DNA from: Candidatus Magasanikiibacteriota bacterium
Lineage (GTDB): Bacteria > Patescibacteriota > Patescibacteriia > Magasanikbacterales > GWA2-37-8
Assembly: GCA_041665405.1 (NCBI GenBank)
Contig: JBAYIZ010000006.1
Span: forward strand, 407-64,406
Length of the DNA stretch: 64,000 nt
Direction of reading: 5' to 3'
The notes beneath the pieces are model-generated. The model was not told the DNA's origin and did no database searches. It worked only from the letters and a program-made list of their open reading frames with translations. This document shows positions 48,242 through 63,031 of this stretch, piece by piece. Within the stretch, counting starts at the first letter, position 1. Each line of letters starts with the position of its first letter. The translations under genes were made by a program, and so were the position numbers.

Positions 48242-48312
48242 GGTACCGTTGCCAAGCAGTAAGGCAGAGCTCTGCAAAAGCTCTATGCGTGGGTGCAATT
48301 CCCACCGGTACC
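48242..48312 (+). tRNA. tRNA-Cys (anticodon GCA)
   Basis: Acceptor stem GGTACCG/CGGTACC, anticodon stem GAGCT/AGCTC with loop CU-GCA-AA, T-arm GTGGG-TGCAATT-CCCAC. A TTGACT-16-TATTAT promoter lies upstream. Confidence 0.85.
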
Positions 48313-48339
48313 TCGAAATAGCAGTAGTGCTGTAGAACA

Positions 48340-48437
48340 AACATCCCAGACAATGACTTTTTCGCTTTTTTCGACCGCGAGGTCGAAAGGATGAGCCTCG
48401 GCTCATAACCCGCTCAAAAGTAATTGTCTGGGATGTT
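48340..48437 (+). ncRNA. candidate structured RNA / terminator-embedded repeat, copy 3
   Basis: A 15-bp perfect outer stem (AACATCCCAGACAAT/ATTGTCTGGGATGTT) is followed by a T7 run. It encloses the core TTTTTCGCTTTTTTCGACCGCGAGGTCGAAAGGATGAGCCTCGGCTCATAACCCGCTCAAAAG. Confidence 0.55.
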
Positions 48438-48453
48438 TTTTTGTACCATAAAA

Positions 48454-48482
48454 TTGACTTTGTGTTTTTTATCAAGTAAAAT
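48454..48482 (+). promoter_or_regulatory. sigma70-type promoter reading into G+C-rich islet 4
   Basis: TTGACT-17 nt-TAAAAT. The composition switches to G+C-rich about 6 nt downstream. Confidence 0.6.
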
Positions 48483-48576
48483 ATTTTTGTGTCCCAAACG
48501 ACCGACGGTTCGCCGTTCGGTCACAACGACCACTTGCACCGCTCATCGGTGGTGGTCTCGAAAAGGAGAGAGAGCC

Positions 48577-48798
48577 ATGCGTGTGCTTCCCTCGATCCTG
48601 AACCAGAGCCGGAGACGGAGCGACAATTCCGCCGATTGCGGGCAGGTCGCGAGCTCCGAGGCCGACTTCATCCACAGGCAACTGCTCGAGCATGGCTTCT
48701 GCTCGGACATGAAGGAGGGCGCCGTCGGCACCGCCAACATGGTCGGCATCGTCTGTTCGACCGCGGCCGGCCGCGGAGCAGTAGTCCTCCTGGTGTAG
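48577..48798 (+). CDS. 73-aa protein of unknown function encoded in G+C-rich islet 4
   Basis: AAGGAG sits 8 nt before the ATG. By my codon-by-codon read, G/C at codon position 3 is very high in this frame only. Sequence: MRVLPSILNQSRRRSDNSADCGQVASSEADFIHRQLLEHGFCSDMKEGAVGTANMVGIVCSTAAGRGAVVLLV. Confidence 0.55.
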   Translation: MRVLPSILNQSRRRSDNSADCGQVASSEADFIHRQLLEHGFCSDMKEGAVGTANMVGIVCSTAAGRGAVVLLV

Positions 48799-48827
48799 GG
48801 CTCAGCTTCGTACGAGACAACCAGTGC

Positions 48828-48881
48828 GGCCGGACCGGGAGCTCCTTCGGGGGTTTCTGGTCCGGCCGTCGTTTCCTTTTT
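48828..48881 (+). terminator. GC-rich hairpin terminator after the islet 4 ORF
   Basis: GGCCGGACC...GGTCCGGCC (9 bp), followed by gtcgTTTCCTTTTTATT. Confidence 0.55.
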
Positions 48882-48962
48882 ATTATATTTAATACTCAAA
48901 GCGGGTATTTTTTTATTGCTCAAAAAAGGGTTTGCGTGTAAAATAAGAACGAATAATATTTT

Positions 48963-51638: not shown

Positions 51639-51683
51639 AATTAAAAAAATCGACCACACAAAGTAGTCGGTTTTTTTGTTTGT

Positions 51684-53282
51684 TTATTTTTTTATACTTC
51701 TCAACATTATTCTTTTAAAATCTTGCGCAATTTCATAACGCAAGCCTTTTCTATTTAAGTTAACCTTGTTTCTAAGAGTTTCTAAGTATGTTTTATGTTC
51801 TGAACTTGTTAAGTATTCTCGCATGATTTCATCCCTTAATTTTGCCCAATCCTCAGAGTTTTTAAGCCATTGTTTTTCTAGAGGGACACCTAATGTTTTG
51901 TACATTTTTGCTGGATCCATTACGCTATGCATAGTATCATGTTTTCTAAAAAGTTTTGGATTCTCTCGGGCGTTTTTTTCTTTTTCAAACATGTTACTAT
52001 ACATACCAAAATCGATAGTTCCAACGATAGGTGTCCAAATATTTATACGGTAGTTGGTTTGAGGATTTTTTTTCATAAATGTAAGCATGGTCTTCTTTAT
52101 TTCATCTTTTGTATATCGAAAATGTTCGGGTAACCCTAAGATTAGCAAGGTTCTCACCATGAGAAATTTTTTTGCAGAATTAATAAACTCTGTAGCCACT
52201 TCAAGACTATCGCCTTTTGCTAAATCTTTTCTATTGCCGATAACATCTTCTACACCAACGGCAATTTCAATACAGCCAGCTTCAGCCATTTCTTTAAATT
52301 TTCTTAAACCCTCAAACTGCTTGACGCTCATAAAAGCAACCCACCCCATCTTATTTTTATGTTGCTGATTGAAGTGTTTCATAAAATTTATAAAATCTTC
52401 AAAGTGTTTCGGGTTGGCATTTAGTAAGGCATCACGTACAAAAACAAAATCCTTACCTTGTTTATAAAGTTTTTTTATTTCATTTTTGGCTGTGTCAAGA
52501 CAAGACACATATCCACCATAAAAAGAATCACTAGTGCAGAAAGTGCATTTATGAATACATCCGGCGCTAGTAGCTGTCGAACCGGCATTTTTGAAGTGTT
52601 TGTCTAATTCTAAAAAAGGCATTTTATTTATTTGAGAGCCATCGGTAGAAGCCGCTACAGGTATCAATATCTCAAGAGCATTGTTTTCTGTTAGCCGAGG
52701 AAAATTTTTACCAGTTTTTTTAGTGTTTTCAACAATACATAAATTTGTGTTTGTATCCTTTGTTGTATACGCAATTGAGCCTATTTTTTTCAAAGGAACC
52801 CCTAACGATAGAGCCAACATTGGCAATTCTCCTTGTCCGGTACAACAAATATCTATCCCAGTAATTTCTGGGTGTTGTAAAATCCATTTATAATCAAGCG
52901 CAAAATGTTCAGCCCCTCCGATTACTGTTTTTTGAGGATACTTGTTTTTTATTTTACGACACAACTCAAAGGATTCATTTATACTAGTAGACTGACTACT
53001 AATGCCAATAATTTCGGATTGTTGAATAAGATTTTCCATTGCGGACGTTTTTTGGTCTTGAAGATATGCTATGTCCACCGATATGCCAAATTTTTTTAAG
53101 TATCCAGCTATTCTTTTGATGCCGAGATTTTCTAATCTTAAATGATATTCGTCGGCTTCATATTTGGATTCGGTTATGTTGCCGTCAATAAGTAGAACCC
53201 TTTTTCTGGGTAGTTTTTTGTTGAAAGCCATTTTTTGCAGAGCATTCAATGAAATAATTTGTGTTGTTGTCGAAGTTTCCAT
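51684..53282 (-). CDS. B12-binding-domain radical SAM enzyme (class B rSAM)
   Basis: N-terminal Rossmann-like B12-binding region, then CIHKCTFC (CX3CX2C). 532 aa. Confidence 0.75.
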   Translation of the reverse strand: METSTTTQIISLNALQKMAFNKKLPRKRVLLIDGNITESKYEADEYHLRLENLGIKRIAGYLKKFGISVDIAYLQDQKTSAMENLIQQSEIIGISSQSTSINESFELCRKIKNKYPQKTVIGGAEHFALDYKWILQHPEITGIDICCTGQGELPMLALSLGVPLKKIGSIAYTTKDTNTNLCIVENTKKTGKNFPRLTENNALEILIPVAASTDGSQINKMPFLELDKHFKNAGSTATSAGCIHKCTFCTSDSFYGGYVSCLDTAKNEIKKLYKQGKDFVFVRDALLNANPKHFEDFINFMKHFNQQHKNKMGWVAFMSVKQFEGLRKFKEMAEAGCIEIAVGVEDVIGNRKDLAKGDSLEVATEFINSAKKFLMVRTLLILGLPEHFRYTKDEIKKTMLTFMKKNPQTNYRINIWTPIVGTIDFGMYSNMFEKEKNARENPKLFRKHDTMHSVMDPAKMYKTLGVPLEKQWLKNSEDWAKLRDEIMREYLTSSEHKTYLETLRNKVNLNRKGLRYEIAQDFKRIMLRSIKK

Positions 53283-53288
53283 AGTATT

Positions 53289-53978
53289 TTATTTTTTACA
53301 CACAATCAAAGCGGTGTTGGTGCGCAAGAATTTGAGTTCGACTTTGAATCCGACATTCTTTAACCATTTAATCTGATCTTCAATTGGAGCAAGATCGTTT
53401 AAGAACATGTGGTGGTATGCCCACTCGGTCAAAGTTTTTTTGTCTGTCGCATTTTCCACCAAGTGATGAAAGTGCAAAGCGTTATTAAGCGCGGCGGTAT
53501 GTTTGTCTTGGTAAGTCACCAAATCTCCAAAAATAAATACGCCGCCTGATTTAAGCAAAGAATATATTTTTTTGAATAATTTCTTTTTACCGGCTGTGTT
53601 TTGGTGATGAATGCCGATTACTGAAACTATTAAATCATATTTAATATCAAATTTAATTTTGGAGTAATCACCATAAACATATTTTACATTTTTGCCAAGT
53701 TTTTTCTTGGCACTGTTTATCATTTGTCTGGAGAAATCCACCACCGTTAGTTTGCTATTTGGTAGAACATCTTTTATTAATTTGCTAGTAAGACCAGTAC
53801 CAACTCCAAGATCCAACATTTTAATATTTTTGTTCACAAAAGCTTTTTTTGCGTAATTCAAAATATTATAATGAATTTCTAAGTGGTGCGGAATGGAATT
53901 TACAATATCTCGGTCATATTTGTTTAATGAATAATGGTCGTAATTCAACTGAGACGGTTTTACATTGGTTGTTTTCAT
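53289..53978 (-). CDS. class I SAM-dependent methyltransferase
   Basis: Motif I MLDLGVGTGLTS, followed by post-I/II acidic residues. Confidence 0.8.
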   Translation of the reverse strand: MKTTNVKPSQLNYDHYSLNKYDRDIVNSIPHHLEIHYNILNYAKKAFVNKNIKMLDLGVGTGLTSKLIKDVLPNSKLTVVDFSRQMINSAKKKLGKNVKYVYGDYSKIKFDIKYDLIVSVIGIHHQNTAGKKKLFKKIYSLLKSGGVFIFGDLVTYQDKHTAALNNALHFHHLVENATDKKTLTEWAYHHMFLNDLAPIEDQIKWLKNVGFKVELKFLRTNTALIVCKK

Positions 53979-53980
53979 AT

Positions 53981-55336
53981 TTATGAGGTTATTTTATTTA
54001 TAGCGACGATCAACCGTTCGATATCATTGTTTGTATTGCATAGAGCGATAGAGGCGCGAATTAGGGCTGGAATGGTTTTGACGTTGCCATGTTTAACTGA
54101 ATCGACAATGGCATTATCGTTCTTTATTCCTAAAAGTTTTCGTATTACGTGATAGGTACAGAAACTTCCCGCTCTTACACCGATTCCGTATTCGCTATTA
54201 AGTCTTTCGGCCACTTCGTTGGAATCCATATTTTTTATACGAAACGGTATAACGGTTCCTAATTTTTCTTTTTTAACAAACATTTCTACGTTGGGGTTTT
54301 TCTTTAGTGCATCAAACAGTTTGTTTGTTAAAGTTGATTCATACTGACAAATTTTATCTATGCCAATTTTTTTGAGTTGCTCAAGTGCAATAGCCATGGT
54401 AACCGCACCGATAGCATTAGGCGTGCCTGGATCGTGTGCGAGTTGATTTCTGTATCGCAAGAACTCGCCAGTTTTTGTTATGTAAGGAAGATTACCGCCA
54501 CCAATTTGATAAGGTAAAAAAGAATCAAGAAAGTTTTTTGGTCCGATTAAGAAACCTCCGCCATATGGGGCGTAAAACTTATGACCAGAAGCGGCCAAAA
54601 AATCTATTCCCATTTCTTTCATATCCAATTTGTGATGTTGTAAAAATTGGCAGGCGTCAACCAGAAAATATGCGCCATATCGGTGAGCAAGCATTCCAAT
54701 TTTTTTAATATCAGGACAATATCCCGTAACATTTGAAGAAGCAGTAAGAACTAATACTTTGATATGATTTTTTTTGAGTAAATTTTCTATTATGTCTAAA
54801 TCAAATTCAAAATTTTCATTAACATCATATTGTAATACTTGGCGACGTCCTAAGTATTGAATTTGTTCGTTGACGCTATCCATTTCTCCAAAAGTATTTT
54901 GTTGTCCACCCAAAGCTTTGATACCTTCAGATTTTATCCAAGGCAACCAAGATGAACTATGCTCAATAGACGACACAGCGATTTTTCCTTTTAGGAAAGA
55001 AAAAAAGTGGGCGGCTGTATTGATTGCCCCAGTAGTATTATTGGTAAACAAAACATATGAATCAGACGGAGCATTAACAAAGGATTTGATTATCTCGCGA
55101 CTGTTTTCATATACATCGGTGGAGATTTTTGATTTTTTCCCCGCGCCACGATGTACCGATCCGTAGCTAGTTATGTATTTTGATAGTCCGCGTTCGACTG
55201 TTTTAAGGGGAGGAGTGGTGGCAGCATTGTCCAAGTTCACATAATCAACTTTTCCTAAAATTGAGGTTGTGACTGCGTATTTTAGGATTTTGGTTGAAAA
55301 CAGTTTGGTAGGGTCAATTTGGCTTGGTTTGTTCAT
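53981..55336 (-). CDS. class V aminotransferase / cysteine desulfurase-like PLP enzyme
   Basis: The PLP-lysine context ASGHKFYAPYGGGFLIG is present. The fold-type I pattern runs throughout. Confidence 0.8.
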   Translation of the reverse strand: MNKPSQIDPTKLFSTKILKYAVTTSILGKVDYVNLDNAATTPPLKTVERGLSKYITSYGSVHRGAGKKSKISTDVYENSREIIKSFVNAPSDSYVLFTNNTTGAINTAAHFFSFLKGKIAVSSIEHSSSWLPWIKSEGIKALGGQQNTFGEMDSVNEQIQYLGRRQVLQYDVNENFEFDLDIIENLLKKNHIKVLVLTASSNVTGYCPDIKKIGMLAHRYGAYFLVDACQFLQHHKLDMKEMGIDFLAASGHKFYAPYGGGFLIGPKNFLDSFLPYQIGGGNLPYITKTGEFLRYRNQLAHDPGTPNAIGAVTMAIALEQLKKIGIDKICQYESTLTNKLFDALKKNPNVEMFVKKEKLGTVIPFRIKNMDSNEVAERLNSEYGIGVRAGSFCTYHVIRKLLGIKNDNAIVDSVKHGNVKTIPALIRASIALCNTNNDIERLIVAINKITS

Positions 55337-55485
55337 ATATGCTATTTGTTATTAAATAACGCGTTATAATAGCATTTTTTACACATTCCGTCAATCATTT
55401 GGGACACACAAACTTGACAAAAGATAGTAAATAAGCTAAAATACAGAATATATTATTCCGTGTCGTAAATTATTGACAACTAAAT

Positions 55486-56220
55486 ATGGAAAATTTGAAT
55501 ATTCTAAAAGAACTCGGTTTAGACGACCAAGAAGCGAGTGTATATATGGCTTTATTAAAATTGGGTGGATCTCAAGCCAGTGTTGTAGCCAAAGATGTTG
55601 GCATTAAACGGACAACAGTTTACCCTGTTTTGCAGGCGTTGGCGGCCAAAGGGATGGTAAATGTTTATTTTCGAAAAAACCGCCATTTCTATTATGCTCA
55701 AAAACCAAATAGAGTGGTGGGTATTTTCAAAAAGAAAATAGAATCATTTGAAAGTATTATTCCAATGTTGGAACTAGTTGAAAAAAAACAAGTGATGGCC
55801 ACGGGTTTGCGCTTTATTGAAACAGTTGAAGAATTAAAACAATTTTATAACGGAATTTTAGATGAGTATAAAGGGAAGCAATATCTGGCAATTGGAAATA
55901 CGGCGGCATGGGAGGGATTGGAACCAGAATTTTTTGTAAACTTTCGTAGACAAAGAGCAGAAAATAAAATTAAAACGAAATTACTATTAACATTTAATTC
56001 TGTCGAAATAAATCCAATAGAAACCTCGCTATTAAGAGAGTGGAAATATCTTCCTGAAAAATATAAATTTCAAAGTACGATAGATATTTTTAATGATAAA
56101 ATTTTGATTGTGAGTCCGGAGCTAAGTTCGTTGGCGGTGGTGATCGCGGTGCCGGCGATGACGGATATTTTTAAATCTGTTTTTGAGATGTTGTGGCAGA
56201 TGTTGCCGGAGGTGAAATAA
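55486..56220 (+). CDS. TrmB-family winged-HTH transcriptional regulator (paralog 1, short form)
   Basis: N-terminus LKELGLDDQEASVYMALLKLGGSQASVVAKDVGIKRTTVYPVLQALAAKGMV. A TTGACA-17-TAAAAT promoter lies at about 55413-55441. Confidence 0.8.
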   Translation: MENLNILKELGLDDQEASVYMALLKLGGSQASVVAKDVGIKRTTVYPVLQALAAKGMVNVYFRKNRHFYYAQKPNRVVGIFKKKIESFESIIPMLELVEKKQVMATGLRFIETVEELKQFYNGILDEYKGKQYLAIGNTAAWEGLEPEFFVNFRRQRAENKIKTKLLLTFNSVEINPIETSLLREWKYLPEKYKFQSTIDIFNDKILIVSPELSSLAVVIAVPAMTDIFKSVFEMLWQMLPEVK

Positions 56221-56269: not shown

Positions 56270-57910
56270 TTACTCAATAAAAAGATTTTCCGTAGAATAA
56301 TTATTTTTTATTAATTTATCATTTATTAAAACTTTTATAATTTCATCAACCACTGAATTAAAATCATCTGGAATTGTATCAAAGAATTCTATCTTTTTTA
56401 ATGATTCGGTTAATTCGCGCTCAGGTATCCCAACATGAGATGAGGCAATATTTATTACCTCTTTTTCTTGTTTTTTCCATATCGCGACGGATTGATTCCA
56501 CACCTTCTTAATTTTTTCAATCTCTTTGGTTTTTTGTTGTAGTAATTTATTGTTTACAATCAATACATCATATAGGATAGGATAATCGTTTGTGGTTTTT
56601 AAAATATTTATATTTGAAAGTTCAAGCGCTTTTTCAAGCCATGGCTCCCAAATAATTCCAGCTTCAATATTACCCGCGATAATTCCAGCTCCAATTTCAG
56701 AGCATTGCATATCTTTAATTTTTACATCTTTAGAGGTCATCCCTTCTTTTTGGAGAATATATGAGAGAAAAAATTCCGCCACCGATCCTTTTTCGAGTCC
56801 TATGGTTTTACCTTTTAATTCAATTACGGATTTTATATTTGACTGTGCAACTAACGCATCGCCACCGACGGAGCGATTCAATACCTTTACTATTCTAAGA
56901 TCTGTTATTTTTGAGTGTAATTCGATGGCTTTATCTAGGGTAACATTTATTGCGTCTAGCTTTCCTTGCTCCCACAGCTCAACTTTTTTCTTGTTATCTT
57001 CAAAATTGATTTGTTCCACATCAAGCGACTCGTCGATAAACAGACCGCTATCTTTTGCATAGTAAAGGGGGGTGTTTCCAGACCAAATATATAATCCCAT
57101 TTTGAAAACATCAGTATCAGTAACAATCCCTTCTTCCAAGCTCGCCTTGATTGATTCTGAACGAATAATGTAACTGATGAACTTTTTTAGTTTTATAAAA
57201 TCTTCATGGAATCTGATTTCAGGTTTTCGTGGTCGTTTGATATTTACTTTTACTACCTGTTTGACAGTTCCTGGATTTAGTCCTAAGACAATAATTCTAT
57301 CCGCTAAGTATATTGCTTCATCAATGTCATGGGTGACTAAAATCATTGTTTTTTGTTCTTCTTCCCATAGTCTTGCTAAAAATTCTTGCATTTGAGATCT
57401 CGTTTGTACATCAAGAGCGCCAAAAGGTTCGTCAAATGCAATTAGGTCAGTCTGTTGTGCTATTGCTCTGGCAATAGCGATTCTTTGTTGCATGCCTCCT
57501 GAAAGCTTGTTGGGGAAATAATCTTTGACCTTGTAAAGGCCAACTCGTTTAAGTAATTTGTTAGTTTCAGTACGTACTTCAGTCTCAGACATATTTTTAC
57601 CGTAAAATCCAATGGCAATATTTTCGAAAACATTCAACCAAGGAAAATTAGAGTATTGCTGAGAAACTAATGCAATTCTATTATTTTCTAAATATTTGGA
57701 GCTGTCTAAACCATTGATTTTTATATTTCCTTCGAATACAGTGTCCAAACCTGTTACGCATTTTAAAATAGTGCTTTTACCTGAGCCGCTTGGGCCAACT
57801 ATACACACTATCTCCCCCTTTTTTATATCAAAAGAGATATCATTTATTGCGATAAAAGATTTATTTTCGCGATCATAATAATGTTTAGTTAGTTTGTGGA
57901 CTTCAATCAT
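56270..57910 (-). CDS. ABC transporter ATPase (NitT/TauT-type) fused to a C-terminal periplasmic-binding-protein-like domain
   Basis: An internal ATG at 57910 gives MIEVHKLTKHY... Walker A GPSGSGKST, signature LSGGMQQR, Walker B LIAFDEP. About 300 further aa resemble an NMT1/SsuA-like fold. Confidence 0.8.
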   Translation of the reverse strand: MIEVHKLTKHYYDRENKSFIAINDISFDIKKGEIVCIVGPSGSGKSTILKCVTGLDTVFEGNIKINGLDSSKYLENNRIALVSQQYSNFPWLNVFENIAIGFYGKNMSETEVRTETNKLLKRVGLYKVKDYFPNKLSGGMQQRIAIARAIAQQTDLIAFDEPFGALDVQTRSQMQEFLARLWEEEQKTMILVTHDIDEAIYLADRIIVLGLNPGTVKQVVKVNIKRPRKPEIRFHEDFIKLKKFISYIIRSESIKASLEEGIVTDTDVFKMGLYIWSGNTPLYYAKDSGLFIDESLDVEQINFEDNKKKVELWEQGKLDAINVTLDKAIELHSKITDLRIVKVLNRSVGGDALVAQSNIKSVIELKGKTIGLEKGSVAEFFLSYILQKEGMTSKDVKIKDMQCSEIGAGIIAGNIEAGIIWEPWLEKALELSNINILKTTNDYPILYDVLIVNNKLLQQKTKEIEKIKKVWNQSVAIWKKQEKEVINIASSHVGIPERELTESLKKIEFFDTIPDDFNSVVDEIIKVLINDKLIKNNYSTENLFIE

Positions 57911-57914
57911 AATT

Positions 57915-58664
57915 TTAAATTTTGTATTTGAAGATGTGTGGGTATAGTTTTTTGAAAATATAATCTGAGAAAAAACCAATTATTCCAATGACAACGATTC
58001 CGACATATAAATCCGGTATATTAGAAAACCTTTGTGCTTCCTTGATCATGTGACCAATACCAGAATTTGCGGCAACCAACTCTGCAATTACGAGATAAGT
58101 CCAACACCACCCCAATGTTATTCGGGAATTATTAAATAATTGCGGAGCGATACTCGATAGTTTTATCTTTAGCACTTTATATTTACTAAAATTTAAGGTA
58201 TGAGATAAATCTAGATATTCTTTAGGAACATTATTTAAATCATCTATTACTAATAAGATAAGTTGAAAAAAAGTGCCAATGAATAAAAGTGATATTTTAG
58301 CACCTTCTCCTATACCAAAAAATAAAATTGTTAATGGGATTAAGGCTGGCACGGGTAAATATCTAATAAAGTCTATATATGGCGAAAGTAAATCGTGTAG
58401 TTTTTTCCACGAACTCATCAATAGCGCGAGCGAAAGAGCAATAACAAAAGCTAACAAGAACGCTACTAAAACTCGAAAAATAGAAATACCAATATCTAAC
58501 ACAAAGGATTTTTCTAAAAACAATTTTTGTGTCGCTGTTAAAAAATCCTGTATTGTCGGAAAGAATATGGGGTTTATAAGTTTAATCCATGAACCCAAAA
58601 TCCACAGTGATAATAAAATCACTATGGAAATTGGGAAGATATAATTTCCTCTAAACAGTTTCAT
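57915..58664 (-). CDS. ABC transporter permease (NitT/TauT family)
   Basis: 6-TM BPD_transp_1-type protein with an EAA-like loop. It lies between the SBP and ATPase genes. Confidence 0.85.
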   Translation of the reverse strand: MKLFRGNYIFPISIVILLSLWILGSWIKLINPIFFPTIQDFLTATQKLFLEKSFVLDIGISIFRVLVAFLLAFVIALSLALLMSSWKKLHDLLSPYIDFIRYLPVPALIPLTILFFGIGEGAKISLLFIGTFFQLILLVIDDLNNVPKEYLDLSHTLNFSKYKVLKIKLSSIAPQLFNNSRITLGWCWTYLVIAELVAANSGIGHMIKEAQRFSNIPDLYVGIVVIGIIGFFSDYIFKKLYPHIFKYKI

Positions 58665-58676
58665 GGAGATATTAAT

Positions 58677-59678
58677 TTACTTATAACTTGTAATTGTCTT
58701 GTCTGATAATTTATCGCTTGATTTTACCCTTACTCCTGCCGAGTTGTTGCTTTCTAAAATATTACCCACAAGATCAAAAGTTAAATAAGCATTGTTGACT
58801 TGTTTCTTGTCAAACAATTTTTGATTATCTTCTAGCGTCAGCCAACTAACTCCTGATTTGATATCATTCATTTCAGCCTTATCTACACCAAAGGCGTCAG
58901 CCATAATTTGCATTGATTCATCTGGATTCTTTTGCCAATAATCGACAGCTGAAAACCAACCATCCGAAATCTTTTTAAGAACTTCTTGGTCGTTTTTAAC
59001 TAAATTTTCTGAGGCAAATAATAAATCGACAATTAAACCTGGTGTATCTGCACTTGAAACCAATATCTTTGCTCCGGCTCTTTTATCTGCGCTAATAGAT
59101 AAATAAGGTTCATAAGTAGCAGCAACATCTACCTGGCTCGCAACAAATGCATTTCCTGCGTCTGCTGAAGGAAGGTCTTTGAAGCTTACATCTGCCAAGC
59201 TTAATCCTTCTTTATTTAACAAATATTGTAAGATGAAATAAGGAGGAAAACCAGGTTCAGCGGCGACTGTTTTACCTTTTAAGTCTTTCAGTTCTGAAAT
59301 GTTACTAGAAACAACCACGCCATCGCCACCATGTGATTCGTCTATAGCAAGGAATCCAACCCCTGGAGGTTCATTACCTTCTACAGCTTGAAAAATATCA
59401 TACGTTGCAGCGTACATGTCGATCTGTCCGCTGTTCATAGCGGCCCTAAGATCACCGATTGATTCAATTCGAACCAAATTTACATCTACATCATTAAAAA
59501 AATTTTTTTCTTTTGCTAAGTATAGCGGTGCATATCCAGGAAATGTAACCATCCCGATAGTAACTGATTTTTTAGATTGTAGATTTTTTGTGTCATTCTT
59601 GTTACTTTGTGTAAAAACAATTACTAACACAACCACGACGAATAGGGCAACGATTGTCCTGATGATTTTCTTATTCAT
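58677..59678 (-). CDS. ABC transporter substrate-binding protein (NMT1/THI5/SsuA-like)
   Basis: N-terminal anchor or signal sequence, type 2 PBP pattern, first gene of the operon. Confidence 0.8.
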   Translation of the reverse strand: MNKKIIRTIVALFVVVVLVIVFTQSNKNDTKNLQSKKSVTIGMVTFPGYAPLYLAKEKNFFNDVDVNLVRIESIGDLRAAMNSGQIDMYAATYDIFQAVEGNEPPGVGFLAIDESHGGDGVVVSSNISELKDLKGKTVAAEPGFPPYFILQYLLNKEGLSLADVSFKDLPSADAGNAFVASQVDVAATYEPYLSISADKRAGAKILVSSADTPGLIVDLLFASENLVKNDQEVLKKISDGWFSAVDYWQKNPDESMQIMADAFGVDKAEMNDIKSGVSWLTLEDNQKLFDKKQVNNAYLTFDLVGNILESNNSAGVRVKSSDKLSDKTITSYK

Positions 59679-59948: not shown

Positions 59949-61118
59949 ATGCTGATAAAAGACCTCCAATCTATCGGTTTTACCAAGAATCTATCTGAGG
60001 TTTATTTGTCTTTAGCCCAATTGGGAGGCCAGGCCAAAGCTGGGGAAATCATCAAAAAGACAGGTTTACACCGAAATATCGTTTATATTTGTTTAGACAA
60101 ACTAATAGAAAAGCAATTATTAACTAAAACCGAAGAACGCGGTGTTACTATTTATAAAACACTAGATCCAGCCCGACTAATGAATGAAATTCGAGAAAAA
60201 GAACAATTAACAACAAATATTATTGAAGAAATTGAAGCATTAAAAAAGCATCCAGACACTCAAGAAATAATTGTCCACGAAGGTTTGGAAGGTTTTAGAA
60301 ATTTCAATCTCTATACTTTGAAAAAAATCGAAGAAGGTGGCACATTGCAAGTGCTTGGTTCCATTGGAGATAAATGGTTTGAATACATGGGTGAAGAAAA
60401 GTACAAAGAATATATAAAAATACAAAACAAGAAAAAAATTAAGTGGGAGATGATTACTTATTTTGATTCAAAACGCGACAAACAATTTATTAATGACTAT
60501 CCAGAATTATGCGAGGTAAAATTATTACCGCAGACATATGATAATCCGGCCAGCATTTATATTTTTGGAGATACAATTTCAATAAATATTTTTACCGAAC
60601 CATTTTCGGTGATTGAAATAAAAAATCGCGCGGTGGCGGATGTATATAGAAATTATTTTAGTTTGTTGTGGAACCAAGAAGTGTTTACCTATCGCGGTTG
60701 GGATGCGATTGATAAAATTTTGTGTGCGAATTTGGAAGATGGATTTACTTATGATGTTTTTGGGGCAACATATGGTGTGGGTACAAAAGAGGAACAAGAT
60801 CGCGTGTTGGAATTTTTTATGGAGAACCACAGAAAGACCGCACACTTTAAACCAAATAGACGATTGATATTTTTTGAACAAGATCGTGAGCAGGCGGCTA
60901 AAGAAGTTTCTCCGTTGGATGCAGACACTCGTAAAAATGTTCGTTTGCGTTTTCTGTCAGACAAATATTTTTCGCCGATGGAGACACATTTGTTTAAAGA
61001 TAAAGTAATTTTAATTTTTTCTTTTGGCGAACCAATCGCGACAGTTTATACCAATCCAAAAATAATTGAAGTTTACAAAAAACAATTTGAGTTGTGGTGG
61101 GGGATGTCGGTGGAATAA
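59949..61118 (+). CDS. TrmB-like wHTH regulator with a large C-terminal domain (paralog 2)
   Basis: N-terminus LQSIGFTKNLSEVYLSLAQLGGQAKAGEIIKKTGLHRNIVYICLDKLIEKQLL. It shares GLHRN(I/L)VY and (L/F)WNQE with paralog 3. Confidence 0.75.
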   Translation: MLIKDLQSIGFTKNLSEVYLSLAQLGGQAKAGEIIKKTGLHRNIVYICLDKLIEKQLLTKTEERGVTIYKTLDPARLMNEIREKEQLTTNIIEEIEALKKHPDTQEIIVHEGLEGFRNFNLYTLKKIEEGGTLQVLGSIGDKWFEYMGEEKYKEYIKIQNKKKIKWEMITYFDSKRDKQFINDYPELCEVKLLPQTYDNPASIYIFGDTISINIFTEPFSVIEIKNRAVADVYRNYFSLLWNQEVFTYRGWDAIDKILCANLEDGFTYDVFGATYGVGTKEEQDRVLEFFMENHRKTAHFKPNRRLIFFEQDREQAAKEVSPLDADTRKNVRLRFLSDKYFSPMETHLFKDKVILIFSFGEPIATVYTNPKIIEVYKKQFELWWGMSVE

Positions 61119-61918: not shown

Positions 61919-63031
61919 ATGTTAGAACAAAAACTAGAAAAACTTGGTTTTGGAAAAAACGAAGTGAAAGTATATCTAGCTCTTTTTGATTTGGGTAAAT
62001 GTAAAGCCAAACAAATCATTGATAACACAGGTCTTCATCGTAATCTTGTCTACACGGCACTTGATGATTTGATTGGAAAGAAATTAATTTCAAAAGTCGA
62101 GAGTAATGGAATTTTTTTATTTTGGGTTAATAGCCCTGAACTTTTGAACGAAATAATAGAAGAAAAAGCTATAACGGCAAAAGAAGTGATTGAACAATTA
62201 AAAAAGAAAAGCGCCAGTCAACCTCGTGAGATATTAATTTATGAAGGTGAAGAGGGTGTGAAGAAAAGTCGCACCAAAGTTTTAACATATGGAAAAGGAG
62301 ATACATTTTATATGTTAGGAACAAAAGCGAGTTTCTCGCCTTCGATGGAAAAATTTTCAAAGGAGTTTGATTCGCTAAGAATTAAAAAGGGAATTTATTC
62401 AAAAATTTTAGTCGAACATGATGTGAATAAAGATGAACTTAAACATCTTAATAAAATGCCACTTAGTGAAGCCAAGCACCTTCCTCTTGATTTGGAAATG
62501 CCTATTTGGTTTTCAGTTATTCAAGATTATTTGGAAATTGGCATCCCAGGCGTTGATCCACTGATTTTTTCGATAAAAAATAAAGCGGTGGCTGGGGCAA
62601 TAAAAAAATTTATAGATTTTTTCTGGAATCAAGAATCCGAAGTTGTTACAGGCGCAAAGGCTTTACAAGAGATTATGTTGGAATCCATTGATTATGGTGA
62701 GTTGAAAGGTATCGGCGCAAAAGGCAATTTTTTTGAAAATTATCCGGGATTTTTTAATGATATAAAAAAGCGAGCAGTAATGAAACAAGGACTGGTCTGG
62801 AGAAACATTGTTGATCCAAGTATGAAAGGGCATGAGATTACAAAATTTTTGTGGACTAAAACAAAATATAATTTATCCGATACAAAAAATCCCAATGTTG
62901 TTTGGTTGTATGGCCCGAAAGCTGTGATTATAAATTGGGCGGATAAAGAACCTGTGATGTTTGTTTCTACAAATAAGGCGCTAGTGCAAAGTTATAATGA
63001 TTATTTTGAGGAGATGTGGGGTAAAGATTAA
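61919..63031 (+). CDS. TrmB-like wHTH regulator with a large C-terminal domain (paralog 3)
   Basis: N-terminus MLEQKLEKLGFGKNEVKVYLALFDLGKCKAKQIIDNTGLHRNLVYTALDDLIGKKLI. Confidence 0.75.
   Translation: MLEQKLEKLGFGKNEVKVYLALFDLGKCKAKQIIDNTGLHRNLVYTALDDLIGKKLISKVESNGIFLFWVNSPELLNEIIEEKAITAKEVIEQLKKKSASQPREILIYEGEEGVKKSRTKVLTYGKGDTFYMLGTKASFSPSMEKFSKEFDSLRIKKGIYSKILVEHDVNKDELKHLNKMPLSEAKHLPLDLEMPIWFSVIQDYLEIGIPGVDPLIFSIKNKAVAGAIKKFIDFFWNQESEVVTGAKALQEIMLESIDYGELKGIGAKGNFFENYPGFFNDIKKRAVMKQGLVWRNIVDPSMKGHEITKFLWTKTKYNLSDTKNPNVVWLYGPKAVIINWADKEPVMFVSTNKALVQSYNDYFEEMWGKD

What the first reader, a model, noticed from the sequence alone, without database searches (positions are those of the whole stretch)
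51684..55485. Three-gene rSAM(B12)-methyltransferase-PLP enzyme operon under a divergent TrmB regulator
Seen:
- The operon is a tightly packed minus-strand unit with gaps of 2-6 nt.
- It contains a class V aminotransferase/cysteine-desulfurase-like enzyme (SGHK), a class I SAM methyltransferase (LDLGVGTG), and a 532-aa radical SAM protein with an N-terminal B12-binding-like domain and CIHKCTFC.
- It is divergent from the TrmB paralog at 55486.
- The shared intergenic region has an 8-bp inverted repeat, ATGCTATT-N21-AATAGCAT.

Established knowledge: class B rSAM enzymes catalyse methylations and rearrangements on unactivated carbons in cofactor, antibiotic and lipid pathways.

Inference: this is a compact tailoring pathway for an unknown small molecule. 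That would be unusual in a genome that otherwise looks biosynthetically minimal. No precursor peptide ORF is evident.
Basis: partly seen in the sequence, partly recalled or inferred. Interest (0 to 1): 0.6.

Follow-up and report, generated by a model that had tools for sequence, protein, structure and literature searches.

The report
Uncharacterised PLP–methyltransferase–B12 radical SAM cassette
A tiny symbiotic bacterium carries a regulator-controlled three-enzyme operon of unknown function; its PLP-enzyme/methyltransferase pair is common in this bacterial group, while the radical SAM enzyme is a very rare add-on that also turns up in an archaeon and in Bacteroidota, there built into amino-acid uptake operons.

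Summary
All the reported sequence features are present. The 8-bp inverted repeat is at chance level (14-18% of shuffles) and is not conserved. The host is a Candidatus Magasanikbacteria (CPR) bacterium.

No gene reaches the curated cut-off of any named family:
- The 532-aa protein is a class-B-type radical SAM enzyme. Only 8 full-length clusters exist among 1.84 billion representatives.
- The methyltransferase belongs to the MM_2633/CysG/BelI subgroup and keeps its His-His metal motif.
- The PLP enzyme is SufS/CsdA-like and keeps the PLP lysine and the catalytic cysteine.

The trio is not a fixed unit. PLP enzyme + methyltransferase + divergent TrmB is a common Patescibacteria core. A syntenic relative has that core but no rSAM and no ABC transporter. 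The rSAM is an accessory gene that almost always sits beside a methyltransferase, and is fused to one once.

The full trio recurs in other CPR, in an archaeon and in Bacteroidota. In Bacteroidota and one CPR it lies inside amino-acid-type ABC importer operons. A sister rSAM family has the same layout with a class-I aminotransferase.

Best reading: an import-linked, SAM-intensive cassette that modifies an amino acid, probably a sulfur amino acid. It is not a RiPP, natural-product or RNA-modification set. The substrate is unknown.

The parts
51684..53282 (-). Class-B-type radical SAM protein (532 aa). It has an N-terminal Rossmann 'B12-binding' domain (residues 48-158), a radical SAM barrel with C242-x3-C246-x2-C249, and a family-specific C-terminal helical region. 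It is the accessory member of the cassette.
   Evidence: invariant C147, C242, C246, C249; near-invariant C146, C337; AF2 pLDDT 90; best folds TsrM, CysS, TokK; 8 full-length clusters among 1.84e9 representatives.
53289..53978 (-). Class I SAM methyltransferase (229 aa) of the MM_2633/CysG/BelI subgroup. H124-H125 are invariant at the metal-binding His-His position, and N194 is invariant at the Asp position.
   Evidence: plus PMC11408123. At least 384 homologs, mostly Patescibacteria.
53981..55336 (-). SufS/CsdA-like class V PLP enzyme (451 aa). It keeps the PLP lysine K253 (SGHK) and the catalytic-loop cysteine C393 (RAGSFC), and it carries a ~28-aa insertion (~residues 135-162).
   Evidence: SufS model 247 bits against a cut-off of 475; alignment to SufS RAGHHC; invariant K253, C393, R388, R427, H126.
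55366..55394 (-). Predicted sigma-70-type promoter of the operon: TTGACG, 17 nt, TATTAT, with an extended TG.
   Evidence: Both hexamers are conserved in orthologous intergenic regions.
55339..55375 (.). 8-bp inverted repeat ATGCTATT-N21-AATAGCAT, spanning from the -10 box to the start codon.
   Evidence: Present, but at chance level and with only the -10-box arm conserved. Not accepted as an operator.
55414..55442 (+). Predicted trmB promoter: TTGACA, 17 nt, TAAAAT. It stands back-to-back with the operon promoter.
   Evidence: Conserved in orthologous loci.
55486..56220 (+). TrmB-family winged-helix regulator (244 aa), transcribed divergently. It travels with the PLP-MT core (58-75% identity in other loci).
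51651..51669 (-). Terminator hairpin after the rSAM gene, shared with the convergent polA gene.
56270..59678 (-). Neighbouring NitT/TauT-type ABC importer: an ATPase fused to an NMT1 binding-protein domain, a permease, and an SsuA-like lipoprotein binding protein. It has its own divergent TrmB paralog (59949-61118, +). Its link to the cassette is possible but unproven.
   Evidence: It is absent from the syntenic relative L022, as is the rSAM.

Best explanation
The locus is a self-contained module under a TrmB-family regulator that modifies an amino-acid-like small molecule. The substrate is most likely a sulfur amino acid taken up from outside.

Shown:
- One promoter, three tightly packed genes and one terminator.
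- A divergent TrmB gene that co-travels with the enzymes.
- A SufS-type PLP enzyme that keeps the lysine/cysteine pair needed to break a C-beta-sulfur (or selenium) bond.
- A class I methyltransferase that keeps a His-His metal site.
- A radical SAM enzyme with a class B fold, whose closest solved folds are the cobalamin-dependent methylases.

Inferred order of events:
1. The PLP enzyme acts on the alpha-amino acid and releases or carries a sulfur nucleophile (persulfide or thiol), or produces the corresponding keto acid.
2. The metal-dependent methyltransferase methylates that product on a heteroatom or carboxylate.
3. In the minority of genomes that carry it, the radical SAM enzyme adds a further step at an unactivated carbon. 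The most likely step is a cobalamin-dependent C-methylation, as when CysS extends a methyl group installed by an ordinary methyltransferase. Less likely is C-S bond formation as in ThnL.

The PLP enzyme + methyltransferase pair is the ancestral, common unit. The rSAM, and where present an ABC importer, are add-ons that extend it. The substrate and product are unknown.
For: Operon anatomy.

Enzyme identities:
- PLP enzyme: K253, C393, R388, R427 and H126 are invariant across two PLP subtypes that share only 31-34% identity. C393 aligns to the SufS catalytic cysteine.
- MT: the best solved relatives are MM_2633 (2e-29) and the Ca-dependent carboxyl O-methyltransferases CysG/BelI. H124-H125 are invariant at their His122-His123 position (PMC11408123).
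- rSAM: the AF2 model has pLDDT 90. The best PDB folds are TsrM (6e-18, TM 0.55), CysS and TokK, followed by MiaB.

Core versus accessory:
- The rSAM has about 35 homologs among 5.8e9 proteins.
- Only 8 full-length clusters score above 480 bits among 1.84e9 representatives, and the next hit scores 181 bits.
- The MT has at least 384 homologs.
- The top 120 homologs of the PLP enzyme are all at least 63% identical to it.
- About 28 contig lengths are shared between the PLP and MT hit lists.
- The syntenic relative L022 has LysM (65%), polA (75%), PLP enzyme (87%), MT (71%) and TrmB (75%), with no trace of the rSAM.
- L023 carries the PLP enzyme + MT only.

MT-rSAM link:
- They are adjacent in most rSAM loci, even when the MT belongs to another subtype.
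- They are fused in P0021.

Link to import:
- Bacteroidota: binding protein, permease, rSAM, ATPase, MT, PLP enzyme.
- CPR locus L009: the trio plus TrmB lies inside a Liv-type importer operon.
- Window: a NitT/TauT importer lies next door.
- Sister rSAM family (L026): TrmB, rSAM, MT, a class-I aminotransferase-MT fusion and a Liv-type binding protein.

Cross-domain spread: CPR, an archaeon and Bacteroidota.

Precedents: the class B enzymes CysS (iterative methylation) and ThnL (thioether formation) are listed in PMC12931638. The pairing of CysS with an upstream O-methyltransferase is from my own knowledge.
Against: - No substrate-level evidence of any kind was obtained.
- The three importer families differ (PAAT, HAAT, NitT/TauT). 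In the window the importer has its own regulator and is a separate transcription unit, so adjacency may be coincidental. Several CPR trio loci have only housekeeping neighbours.
- The window-type PLP enzyme is so conserved and so widespread in Patescibacteria that it could be a general sulfur-mobilising enzyme and not a pathway-specific one.
- Cobalamin binding by the rSAM is unproven. Its best PDB sequence hit is AprD4, which does not bind cobalamin (PMC12931638).
- Some rSAM homologs stand alone under a TrmB gene, with no MT or PLP enzyme nearby (L014 and L019).
- The sister family uses a true aminotransferase. This fits 'amino acid substrate' but weakens the sulfur-specific part of the model.
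Confidence: 0.4

Rival explanations
1. Sulfur-trafficking or 'split methylthiotransferase' model. The PLP enzyme is a general or dedicated cysteine desulfurase. Its persulfide sulfur is passed to the rSAM, perhaps to its invariant Cys-Cys pair or to a cluster. The sulfur is methylated by the MT and inserted by radical chemistry into a C-H bond of a macromolecule (RNA or protein) or of a metabolite. The three proteins would together do what MiaB/RimO do alone.
For: - The catalytic cysteine and PLP lysine are invariant.
- The PLP clade is highly conserved and widespread in Patescibacteria, as expected for a central sulfur donor.
- The rSAM model resembles MiaB at Foldseek E 1e-11.
- The rSAM has conserved extra cysteines C146, C147 and C337.
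- Cysteine desulfurase genes are commonly co-operonic with the enzymes they supply with sulfur (own knowledge).
- ThnL shows that class B enzymes can make C-S bonds (PMC12931638).
Against: - No TRAM or other RNA-binding domain was found.
- There are only three extra conserved cysteines, two of them adjacent, which is not a MiaB-type three-cysteine auxiliary-cluster motif.
- The MT has no invariant cysteine that could accept a persulfide.
- The Bacteroidota version is interleaved with an amino-acid importer.
- The SufS model score is about half the cut-off, and the His-His that precedes the catalytic cysteine in SufS is Ser-Phe here.
- No SufE/SufU/CsdE-type acceptor was seen in the annotated loci.
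Confidence: 0.2
2. One reading: a compact biosynthetic tailoring pathway for a secreted or specialised natural product.
For: - Class B rSAM enzymes paired with methyltransferases are typical of antibiotic gene clusters (PMC12931638).
- The MT's closest characterised relatives, CysG and BelI, come from beta-lactone natural-product clusters.
- The cassette appears to move horizontally between distant lineages.
Against: - No scaffold-forming enzyme (NRPS, PKS, precursor peptide, cyclase) and no exporter occurs in any of the ~20 loci examined.
- Where transporters are present, they are binding-protein-dependent importers.
- The PLP-MT core is common across Patescibacteria and sits among housekeeping genes.
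Confidence: 0.12
3. Metalloid or phosphonate chemistry. One version is an ArsL/ArsM-like (arsinothricin-type) or selenium-methylating system, in which the PLP enzyme acts as a selenocysteine lyase. The other is a PhpK/PhnW-like phosphonate methylation and transamination system.
For: All the supporting hits are weak:
- rSAM: PhpK family 53 bits, ArsL 36 bits.
- MT: ArsM 40 bits.
- PLP enzyme: SclA 114 bits, PhnW 38 bits.
- The L026 MT has ArsM_2 as its best hit.
- The window binding protein has a weak Phosphonate-bd hit.
- An rSAM + MT pair is the layout of the arsinothricin genes (own knowledge).
Against: - All these scores are 5- to 15-fold below the curated cut-offs.
- The MT has no invariant cysteine, whereas As(III) methyltransferases bind arsenic through cysteines (own knowledge).
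- No ArsR, efflux, SelD, PEP mutase or phosphonatase gene was seen in the loci examined.
- The PLP enzyme scores far better against desulfurases than against PhnW.
Confidence: 0.08
4. No joint pathway. The rSAM gene simply inserted beside an unrelated PLP-MT operon, and the three genes act on different substrates.
For: - The rSAM is absent from the syntenic relative.
- Some rSAM homologs occur without the other two genes.
Against: - The same trio recurs in CPR, an archaeon and Bacteroidota with shuffled gene order.
- An MT-rSAM fusion exists.
- The intergenic gaps are 6 and 2 nt, with no scored terminator at either gene junction.
Confidence: 0.1

Closest known systems
Class B (cobalamin-dependent) radical SAM methylases TsrM, CysS and TokK
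   Same: - Same two-domain architecture: an N-terminal Rossmann cobalamin-type domain followed by a CX3CX2C barrel.
- They are the best structural matches (Foldseek E 6e-18 to 3e-13, TM about 0.55).
- Like CysS, this enzyme is genetically paired with an ordinary SAM methyltransferase (the CysS pairing is from my own knowledge).
   Different: - Only 12-16% sequence identity.
- No PDB sequence hit with the single sequence, and only marginal hits with the family profile.
- Family-specific invariant residues (GGAEH, D-x-C-C, the C-terminal MKxHPQ and DTMH motifs).
- Cobalamin binding and methyl transfer are untested.
- The genomic context is CPR, archaeal and Bacteroidota importer or regulator cassettes, not antibiotic gene clusters.
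SufS/CsdA type II cysteine desulfurases (and selenocysteine lyases)
   Same: The fold, the PLP lysine, the catalytic-loop cysteine, the substrate-binding arginines and the HRG motif are conserved. E-values against solved SufS/CsdA structures are 1e-45 to 1e-41.
   Different: - It scores 247 bits against the SufS cut-off of 475.
- The His-His before the catalytic cysteine is Ser-Phe in the window enzyme; the position varies among the aligned homologs.
- It has a ~28-aa insertion.
- No SufE/SufU/SufBCD genes lie nearby.
- It is paired with a methyltransferase and a TrmB regulator instead.
MM_2633 (PDB 3DTN) and the CysG/BelI metal-dependent carboxyl O-methyltransferases
   Same: These are the closest solved sequences (2e-29 and 1e-18 to 1e-16). 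The His-His of the HHD metal motif is invariant, and the overall length and the N-terminal helical extension are the same (PMC11408123).
   Different: - The Asp of the HHD motif is an invariant Asn here.
- Extra invariant histidines are present (H36, H189).
- Identity is only about 25-35%.
- The partners are a PLP enzyme and an rSAM, not isopropylmalate-pathway homologs and beta-lactone enzymes.
Arsinothricin genes ArsL (Rossmann-domain radical SAM) + ArsM (methyltransferase)
   Same: The logic is the same: a radical SAM enzyme with a Rossmann-type N-terminal domain paired with a class I methyltransferase acting on a small amino-acid-like product. Weak profile hits exist to both.
   Different: - The scores are far below the cut-offs.
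- The rSAM motif here is the canonical CX3CX2C.
- The MT lacks conserved cysteines.
- A PLP enzyme is present.
- No arsenic resistance genes are present.
TrmB-family transcription regulators
   Same: The N-terminal winged-helix domain scores above the Pfam threshold, and the gene is arranged divergently from the operon it presumably controls.
   Different: - It is 244 aa long, against profile lengths of 338-341 positions for the TrmB/TrmBL1 equivalog models.
- It scores 22-44 bits against equivalog cut-offs of 600-650.
- The effector is unknown.
- Three paralogs lie within 8 kb.

Membership tests
Class B (cobalamin-dependent) radical SAM enzymes | CX3CX2C motif that binds the radical SAM [4Fe-4S] cluster | tested here: met
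   C242, C246 and C249 are invariant in 23 homologs. Radical_SAM Pfam scores 32.1 bits against a cut-off of 29.5.
Class B (cobalamin-dependent) radical SAM enzymes | N-terminal Rossmann-type cobalamin-binding domain packed against the barrel | tested here: met
   PF02310 scores 43.4 bits against a cut-off of 32.1. The AF2 model (pLDDT 90) superposes best on TsrM, CysS and TokK.
Class B (cobalamin-dependent) radical SAM enzymes | Actual binding of cobalamin and cobalamin-dependent catalysis | not testable with these tools
   AprD4 and ArsL carry similar domains but bind no cobalamin (PMC12931638). AprD4 is the best PDB hit of the family profile.
Named class B equivalogs (PhpK, HpnJ, HpnR, ArsL, BzaD, ladderane-lipid rSAM) | Score at or above the curated NCBIfam cut-off | tested here: not met
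   The best hit is PhpK at 53.5 bits against a cut-off of 600. All other hits are 49 bits or less, against cut-offs of 251-775.
SufS/CsdA type II cysteine desulfurase | PLP-binding lysine and catalytic-loop cysteine | tested here: met
   K253 and C393 are invariant. C393 aligns with the SufS catalytic cysteine.
SufS/CsdA type II cysteine desulfurase | Family-level score, and the R-x-G-H-H-C active-site loop | tested here: not met
   The SufS model scores 246.8 bits against a cut-off of 475.1, and CsdA 172 against 607. The loop reads RAGSFC.
SufS/CsdA type II cysteine desulfurase | A dedicated sulfur acceptor (SufE/SufU/CsdE) or Fe-S scaffold genes in the same locus | tested here: not met
   None was found in the window locus or in the annotated homologous loci. 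The rest of the genome could not be examined.
CysG/BelI-type metal-dependent O-methyltransferases | His-His-Asp metal-binding motif | tested here: inconclusive
   The His-His (H124-H125) is invariant, but the Asp position is an invariant Asn (N194). In CysG the D191N variant retains partial activity (PMC11408123).
CmoA / BioC / UbiE / ArsM methyltransferase equivalogs | Score at or above the curated cut-off | tested here: not met
   BioC 67 against 185, UbiE 49 against 216, CmoA 45 against 193, ArsM 41 against 263.
TrmB-family regulator | N-terminal TrmB winged-helix DNA-binding domain | tested here: met
   PF01978 scores 60.9 bits against a cut-off of 25.6.
TrmB-family regulator | C-terminal sugar-sensing domain of the characterised TrmB/TrmBL1 proteins | tested here: not met
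   Only residues 3-89 match. TrmBL1 scores 44 against 650 and TrmB 22 against 600.
RiPP biosynthetic cluster | A conserved precursor-peptide ORF next to the rSAM | tested here: not met
   The only intergenic ORF is 18-21 aa, overlaps the -35 box, and is not conserved in L022. No peptidase, recognition-element or exporter genes were seen in any locus.
MiaB/RimO methylthiotransferases | N-terminal three-cysteine auxiliary-cluster domain and a C-terminal TRAM domain | tested here: not met
   There is fold resemblance only (Foldseek E 1e-11). No TRAM hit was found, and only C146, C147 and C337 are conserved outside the rSAM motif.

The most novel reading that the evidence does not exclude
The cassette may be a three-protein thioether-forming or alkyl-building system that lets ultra-small symbionts, and some Bacteroidota and archaea, convert one imported amino acid into another.

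In this reading:
- Sulfur (or selenium) is stripped from cysteine by the SufS-like enzyme.
- It is joined to an unactivated carbon by the class B radical SAM enzyme, as ThnL does.
- It is capped by the metal-dependent methyltransferase.

This would be a split, cobalamin-linked counterpart of the methylthiotransferases, possibly using the invariant Cys-Cys pair at the edge of the Rossmann sheet as a sulfur or methyl relay, or as a ligand to cobalt.
Probability: 0.1. Interest if true: 0.8.

Novelty: new variant of a known kind. Interest (0 to 1): 0.48.

Why it matters
CPR bacteria and DPANN-like archaea have almost no biosynthesis, so each conserved enzyme module they keep probably marks something they must make or convert from host-derived compounds.

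This study shows three things:
- A very common Patescibacteria pair (SufS-like PLP enzyme + His-His methyltransferase + TrmB) has no assigned function.
- A tiny radical SAM family that crosses domains plugs into that pair.
- A presumably cobalamin-requiring enzyme sits in organisms that, as far as is known, cannot make cobalamin.

Finding the substrate would assign a function to hundreds of unannotated CPR genes. It could also reveal a new SAM/B12-dependent conversion of an amino acid or organosulfur compound.

The surprise is limited, because most of the more than 100 sequence groups of B12-radical SAM enzymes are still uncharacterised (PMC12931638).

Tried and rejected
- **Inverted repeat as operator.** Rejected. 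It is at chance level, and only the arm that coincides with the -10 box is conserved. The conserved blocks in orthologous intergenic regions are the two back-to-back promoters and a TGTCAA...TTTACGACA stretch in the trmB leader, and these cannot be separated from promoter elements.
- **Riboswitch in the 5' leaders.** The leaders are long in L006 and L007. No Rfam family matched at E of 1 or less apart from tRNAs and noise.
- **Small or precursor ORFs.** None is conserved.
- **L-aspartate oxidase next to the rSAM in L013, as a possible substitute for the PLP enzyme.** Rejected. It is a bona fide NadB (478 bits against a cut-off of 453), so probably just a neighbour.
- **The 1,300-aa protein downstream in the Bacteroidota loci.** No Pfam or NCBIfam hit. 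By eye it has histidine-kinase-like H-box and N-box motifs. Not resolved.
- **Literature searches** for this gene combination in CPR found nothing specific.
- **PDB sequence search with the rSAM.** No hit. The family profile gave only marginal hits.
- **Names for the nearest sister clusters.** None is informative.
- **Mapping conserved cysteines in 3-D.** The coordinates of the predicted model were not available to scripts, so distances between C146/C147/C337 and the cluster or cobalamin sites could not be measured.
- **GC-rich insert at 48.3-48.96 kb.** No Rfam, Pfam or plasmid match.

Full report
**1. What is in the sequence**

The three minus-strand ORFs are exactly as reported:
- Radical SAM (rSAM) protein: 51684-53282, 532 aa.
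- Methyltransferase (MT): 53289-53978, 229 aa.
- PLP enzyme: 53981-55336, 451 aa.

The gaps between them are 6 and 2 nt. The TrmB gene starts at 55486 on the plus strand.

Pfam confirms every domain call above its gathering threshold:
- B12-binding domain (residues 48-158) and Radical_SAM (239-386) in the 532-aa protein.
- Class I methyltransferase domains in the 229-aa protein.
- Aminotran_5 (256 bits) in the 451-aa protein.
- The TrmB winged helix in the regulator.

The quoted motifs SGHK, LDLGVGTG and CIHKCTFC are all present.

Transcription signals:
- A good sigma-70-type promoter (TTGACG, 17 nt, TATTAT, with an extended TG; 55394-55366) precedes the PLP gene.
- It stands back-to-back with the trmB promoter (TTGACA, 17 nt, TAAAAT; 55414-55442).
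- A hairpin terminator shared with the convergent polA gene follows the rSAM gene (51669-51651).
- No scored minus-strand terminator lies at either gene junction. So this is a single three-gene operon divergent from trmB.

The inverted repeat is also there (55339-46 / 55368-75, 21-nt spacer), but it is not significant:
- An arm of this length with a 3-30 nt loop appears in 14-18% of shuffles of the 149-nt region and in 10% of equal-sized tiles of the window.
- One arm is simply the extended -10 box.
- The other arm is not conserved in orthologous intergenic regions, where only the promoter hexamers align.

An identical rSAM protein is annotated in a Candidatus Magasanikbacteria MAG, so the host is a CPR/Patescibacteria bacterium.

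**2. What the three enzymes are**

None of them belongs to a characterised family. Against NCBIfam every hit is far below its curated cut-off:
- rSAM: PhpK family 53 bits against 600, HpnJ 49 against 578.
- MT: BioC 67 against 185, CmoA 45 against 193.
- PLP enzyme: SufS 247 against 475.

*The rSAM*
- It has no sequence match in the PDB.
- An AlphaFold model built from 23 homologs is confident (pLDDT 90, pTM 0.90).
- The model superposes best on the cobalamin-dependent enzymes TsrM, CysS and TokK (E 6e-18 to 3e-13, TM about 0.55, 12-16% identity), and next on MiaB.
- The family has an invariant CX3CX2C and an invariant GGxEH...D and D-x-C-C segment at the end of the Rossmann domain. It also has a characteristic C-terminal region.
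- Whether it binds cobalamin cannot be decided from sequence. AprD4, the best PDB hit of the family profile, has such a domain but binds no cobalamin (PMC12931638).

*The MT*
- Its closest solved relatives are MM_2633 (3DTN, 2e-29) and CysG/BelI (1e-18 to 1e-16).
- CysG and BelI are Ca2+-dependent carboxyl O-methyltransferases with a His-His-Asp metal site (PMC11408123).
- The His-His is invariant here (H124-H125), and the Asp position is an invariant Asn. Further invariant residues are Y21, D22, H36, W186 and H189.
- No cysteine is invariant.

*The PLP enzyme*
- It is a type II (SufS/CsdA-like) cysteine desulfurase homolog (1e-45 to solved SufS structures).
- Two subtypes share only 31-34% identity. 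Across both, the PLP lysine (K253), the catalytic-loop cysteine (C393), two arginines, H126 and the HRG motif are invariant.
- The SufS loop RAGHHC reads RAGSFC in the window enzyme. The two residues before the cysteine vary among the aligned homologs and are His-His in none of them. The window subtype also has a ~28-residue insertion.

**3. The trio is a core pair plus a rare accessory**

The rSAM family is tiny:
- It has about 35 homologs above 39% identity among 5.8 billion proteins, after which identity drops to 24%.
- An exhaustive profile search of 1.84 billion cluster representatives finds only 8 full-length clusters above 480 bits. The next full-length hit scores 181 bits.
- Only 4 loci were found in 185,579 species-representative genomes, and 11 in the JGI metagenome contigs.

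By contrast:
- The MT has at least 384 homologs, with 120 of them above 59% identity, and almost all named ones come from Patescibacteria.
- The top 120 homologs of the window-type PLP enzyme are all 63-88% identical to it. Named sources include Magasanik-, Moran-, Uhr- and Staskawiczbacteria.
- About 28 contig lengths coincide between the two hit lists, so the pair is commonly on one contig.

The 437-kb contig L022 is syntenic with the window. Protein identities are LysM-M23 peptidase 65%, polA 75%, PLP enzyme 87%, MT 71% and TrmB 75%. However:
- It has a DUF4325 gene where the rSAM lies in the window, and no rSAM remnant.
- It has a toxin-antitoxin pair where the window has the second TrmB and the ABC importer.

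L023 likewise carries the PLP enzyme + MT only. So PLP enzyme + MT + divergent TrmB is the common core. In the window, the rSAM and the TrmB2-importer unit are both extra.

Conversely, the rSAM almost always sits beside a methyltransferase, even one of a different subtype (L003, L011, L013). In P0021 it is fused to one. A few homologs stand alone under a TrmB gene (L014, L019).

**4. Distribution and context**

The complete trio recurs with shuffled gene order in:
- Several other CPR loci, usually with the divergent TrmB at 58-62% identity (L006, L007, L009, L010, L016, L018, L027).
- An archaeal contig flanked by ribosomal protein P1/L10/L1, aIF5A and Spt5 genes, also with a divergent TrmB.
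- Bacteroidota, including a Paludibacter MAG.

In the Bacteroidota loci (L001 and L020) the order is binding protein (SBP_bac_3), permease, rSAM, ABC ATPase, MT, PLP enzyme. The rSAM is therefore interleaved with a polar-amino-acid-type importer. L017 shows the rSAM-ATPase-MT-PLP part of this order.

In CPR locus L009 the trio plus TrmB sits inside a Liv-type importer operon.

In the window a NitT/TauT-type importer lies next door. It consists of an SsuA-like binding protein, a permease, and an ATPase fused to a second binding-protein domain. It is a separate unit with its own divergent TrmB paralog.

Other CPR trio loci have only housekeeping neighbours, so the cassette is self-contained.

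The nearest sister rSAM family (P0285, locus L026) shows the same theme with a non-homologous PLP enzyme. Its layout is divergent TrmB, B12-rSAM, MT, a class-I aminotransferase (GntC/AspAT-like) fused to a second MT, and a Liv/urea-type binding protein.

No locus contains an NRPS, PKS, precursor peptide, recognition element, peptidase or exporter. No known riboswitch lies in the leaders.

**5. Most likely mechanism**

The recurring elements are:
- a PLP enzyme that acts on alpha-amino acids;
- one or two SAM methyltransferases;
- a class-B-type rSAM;
- a local ligand-sensing regulator;
- in five loci, a binding-protein-dependent importer of an amino-acid or organosulfur type.

This fits a substrate-induced module that modifies an imported amino-acid-like compound better than it fits a natural-product or RNA-modification set.

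In the window-type and Bacteroidota-type cassettes the PLP enzyme keeps the full desulfurase catalytic set. My best model is therefore as follows:
1. The PLP enzyme cleaves a C-beta-S (or Se) bond of cysteine or an S-substituted cysteine.
2. The His-His metal methyltransferase methylates the released nucleophile or acid.
3. The rSAM, where present, adds a radical step at an unactivated carbon. The most probable step is cobalamin-dependent C-methylation, following the precedent of CysS acting after an ordinary methyltransferase. C-S bond formation as in ThnL is the alternative (PMC12931638).

The gene content, the conservation pattern, the fold assignments and the contexts are shown. The order of the reactions, the sulfur focus and cobalamin use are inferred. 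I put this at about 0.4.

Rivals:
- A sulfur-trafficking or 'split methylthiotransferase' model (0.2).
- Metalloid or phosphonate chemistry suggested by weak ArsL/ArsM/PhpK/PhnW hits (0.08).
- No joint pathway at all (0.1).

**6. Comparison with known systems, and novelty**

Each enzyme belongs to a known superfamily, and 'class B rSAM + methyltransferase' is a known pairing logic. The following are not described in anything I could find and match no curated model:
- this particular rSAM family;
- its coupling to a SufS-like enzyme and an MM_2633-type methyltransferase under TrmB control;
- its spread across CPR, Archaea and Bacteroidota;
- its embedding in importer operons.

I rate it a new variant of a known kind. 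Interest is moderate:
- The core pair is a widespread and highly conserved CPR module without an assigned function.
- A putatively B12-dependent enzyme in organisms not known to make B12 is notable.
- On the other hand, most B12-rSAM sequence groups are still uncharacterised, so an unassigned one is not in itself surprising.

Noticed in passing
window 48320-48960: A ~640-nt GC-rich stretch lies between a tRNA gene (48242-48313) and polA. The syntenic relative L022 has only ~290 nt between its polA and LysM-M23 genes.
- It begins with a long hairpin (48334-48443).
- A promoter-like TTGACT-17-TAAAAT follows.
- Then comes a ~400-nt GC-rich segment that folds better than shuffles (z = -3.8) and ends in a 20-bp terminator hairpin.
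- The segment also holds a 73-aa ORF (48577-48795) preceded by a Shine-Dalgarno-like AAGGAG.

No Rfam, Pfam or plasmid match was found. It may be a foreign insertion or an unknown structured RNA.
   Followed up: partly
window 55486-56220, 59949-61118, 61919-63031: Three TrmB-family paralogs lie within 8 kb. The first two each stand divergent from a different gene set (55486 from the enzyme operon, 59949 from the ABC importer). Another CPR locus (L019) shows three TrmB divergons within 15 kb. TrmB paralogs seem to be the standard local regulators of accessory cassettes in these genomes.
   Followed up: partly
window 56270-57979 (-): An ABC transporter ATPase (residues 46-186) is fused to a C-terminal NMT1/SsuA-type substrate-binding domain (residues 303-500). 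That domain is 28% identical to the separate lipoprotein binding protein of the same operon. A binding-protein domain on the cytoplasmic ATPase is unusual. The listed TTG start overlaps the permease gene, so the real start is probably the ATG at about 57910.
   Followed up: no
L026:300-7200: The sister cassette around the nearest outgroup rSAM (P0285) has this layout: divergent TrmB, B12-rSAM, a 309-aa MT, a 597-aa fusion of a class-I aminotransferase (GntC/AspAT-like) with a second MT, and a Liv/urea-type binding protein. It is the same theme as the window cassette, built with a different PLP enzyme.
   Followed up: partly
L001:12323-17028 and L020:11364-15254: Directly downstream of the Bacteroidota cassette lies a conserved ~1,300-aa protein with no Pfam or NCBIfam hit. 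By eye it carries histidine-kinase-like motifs (ARNMSHNIGSHVLS, ILENIIRNTAKHA) and a receiver-like C-terminal segment. It may be the regulator that replaces TrmB in these loci.
   Followed up: partly
P0149, P0233/P0251 (homologs, not in the window): Two kinds of variant architecture exist in the core pair. One is an MT fused to a C-terminal cupin domain (P0149, 377 aa). The other is a set of PLP enzymes of ~582 aa with a ~130-aa N-terminal extension that has no Pfam hit (several Patescibacteria, including Uhrbacteria).
   Followed up: no
L009:6457-7105: Two small ORFs (97 and 120 aa), guessed to be a toxin-antitoxin-like pair, lie between the Liv permease genes and the ATPase gene, just upstream of the trio. 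L022 has a RelB/ParE pair at the position where the window has the ABC importer. These cassette borders look like hot spots for insertions.
   Followed up: no
L006 (record CAYHWE010000007.1): The record is titled 'uncultured Gammaproteobacteria bacterium'. Its TrmB, PLP enzyme and MT are nonetheless 62-68% identical to those of the Magasanikbacteria window. The taxonomic label or the binning of this MAG may be wrong.
   Followed up: no
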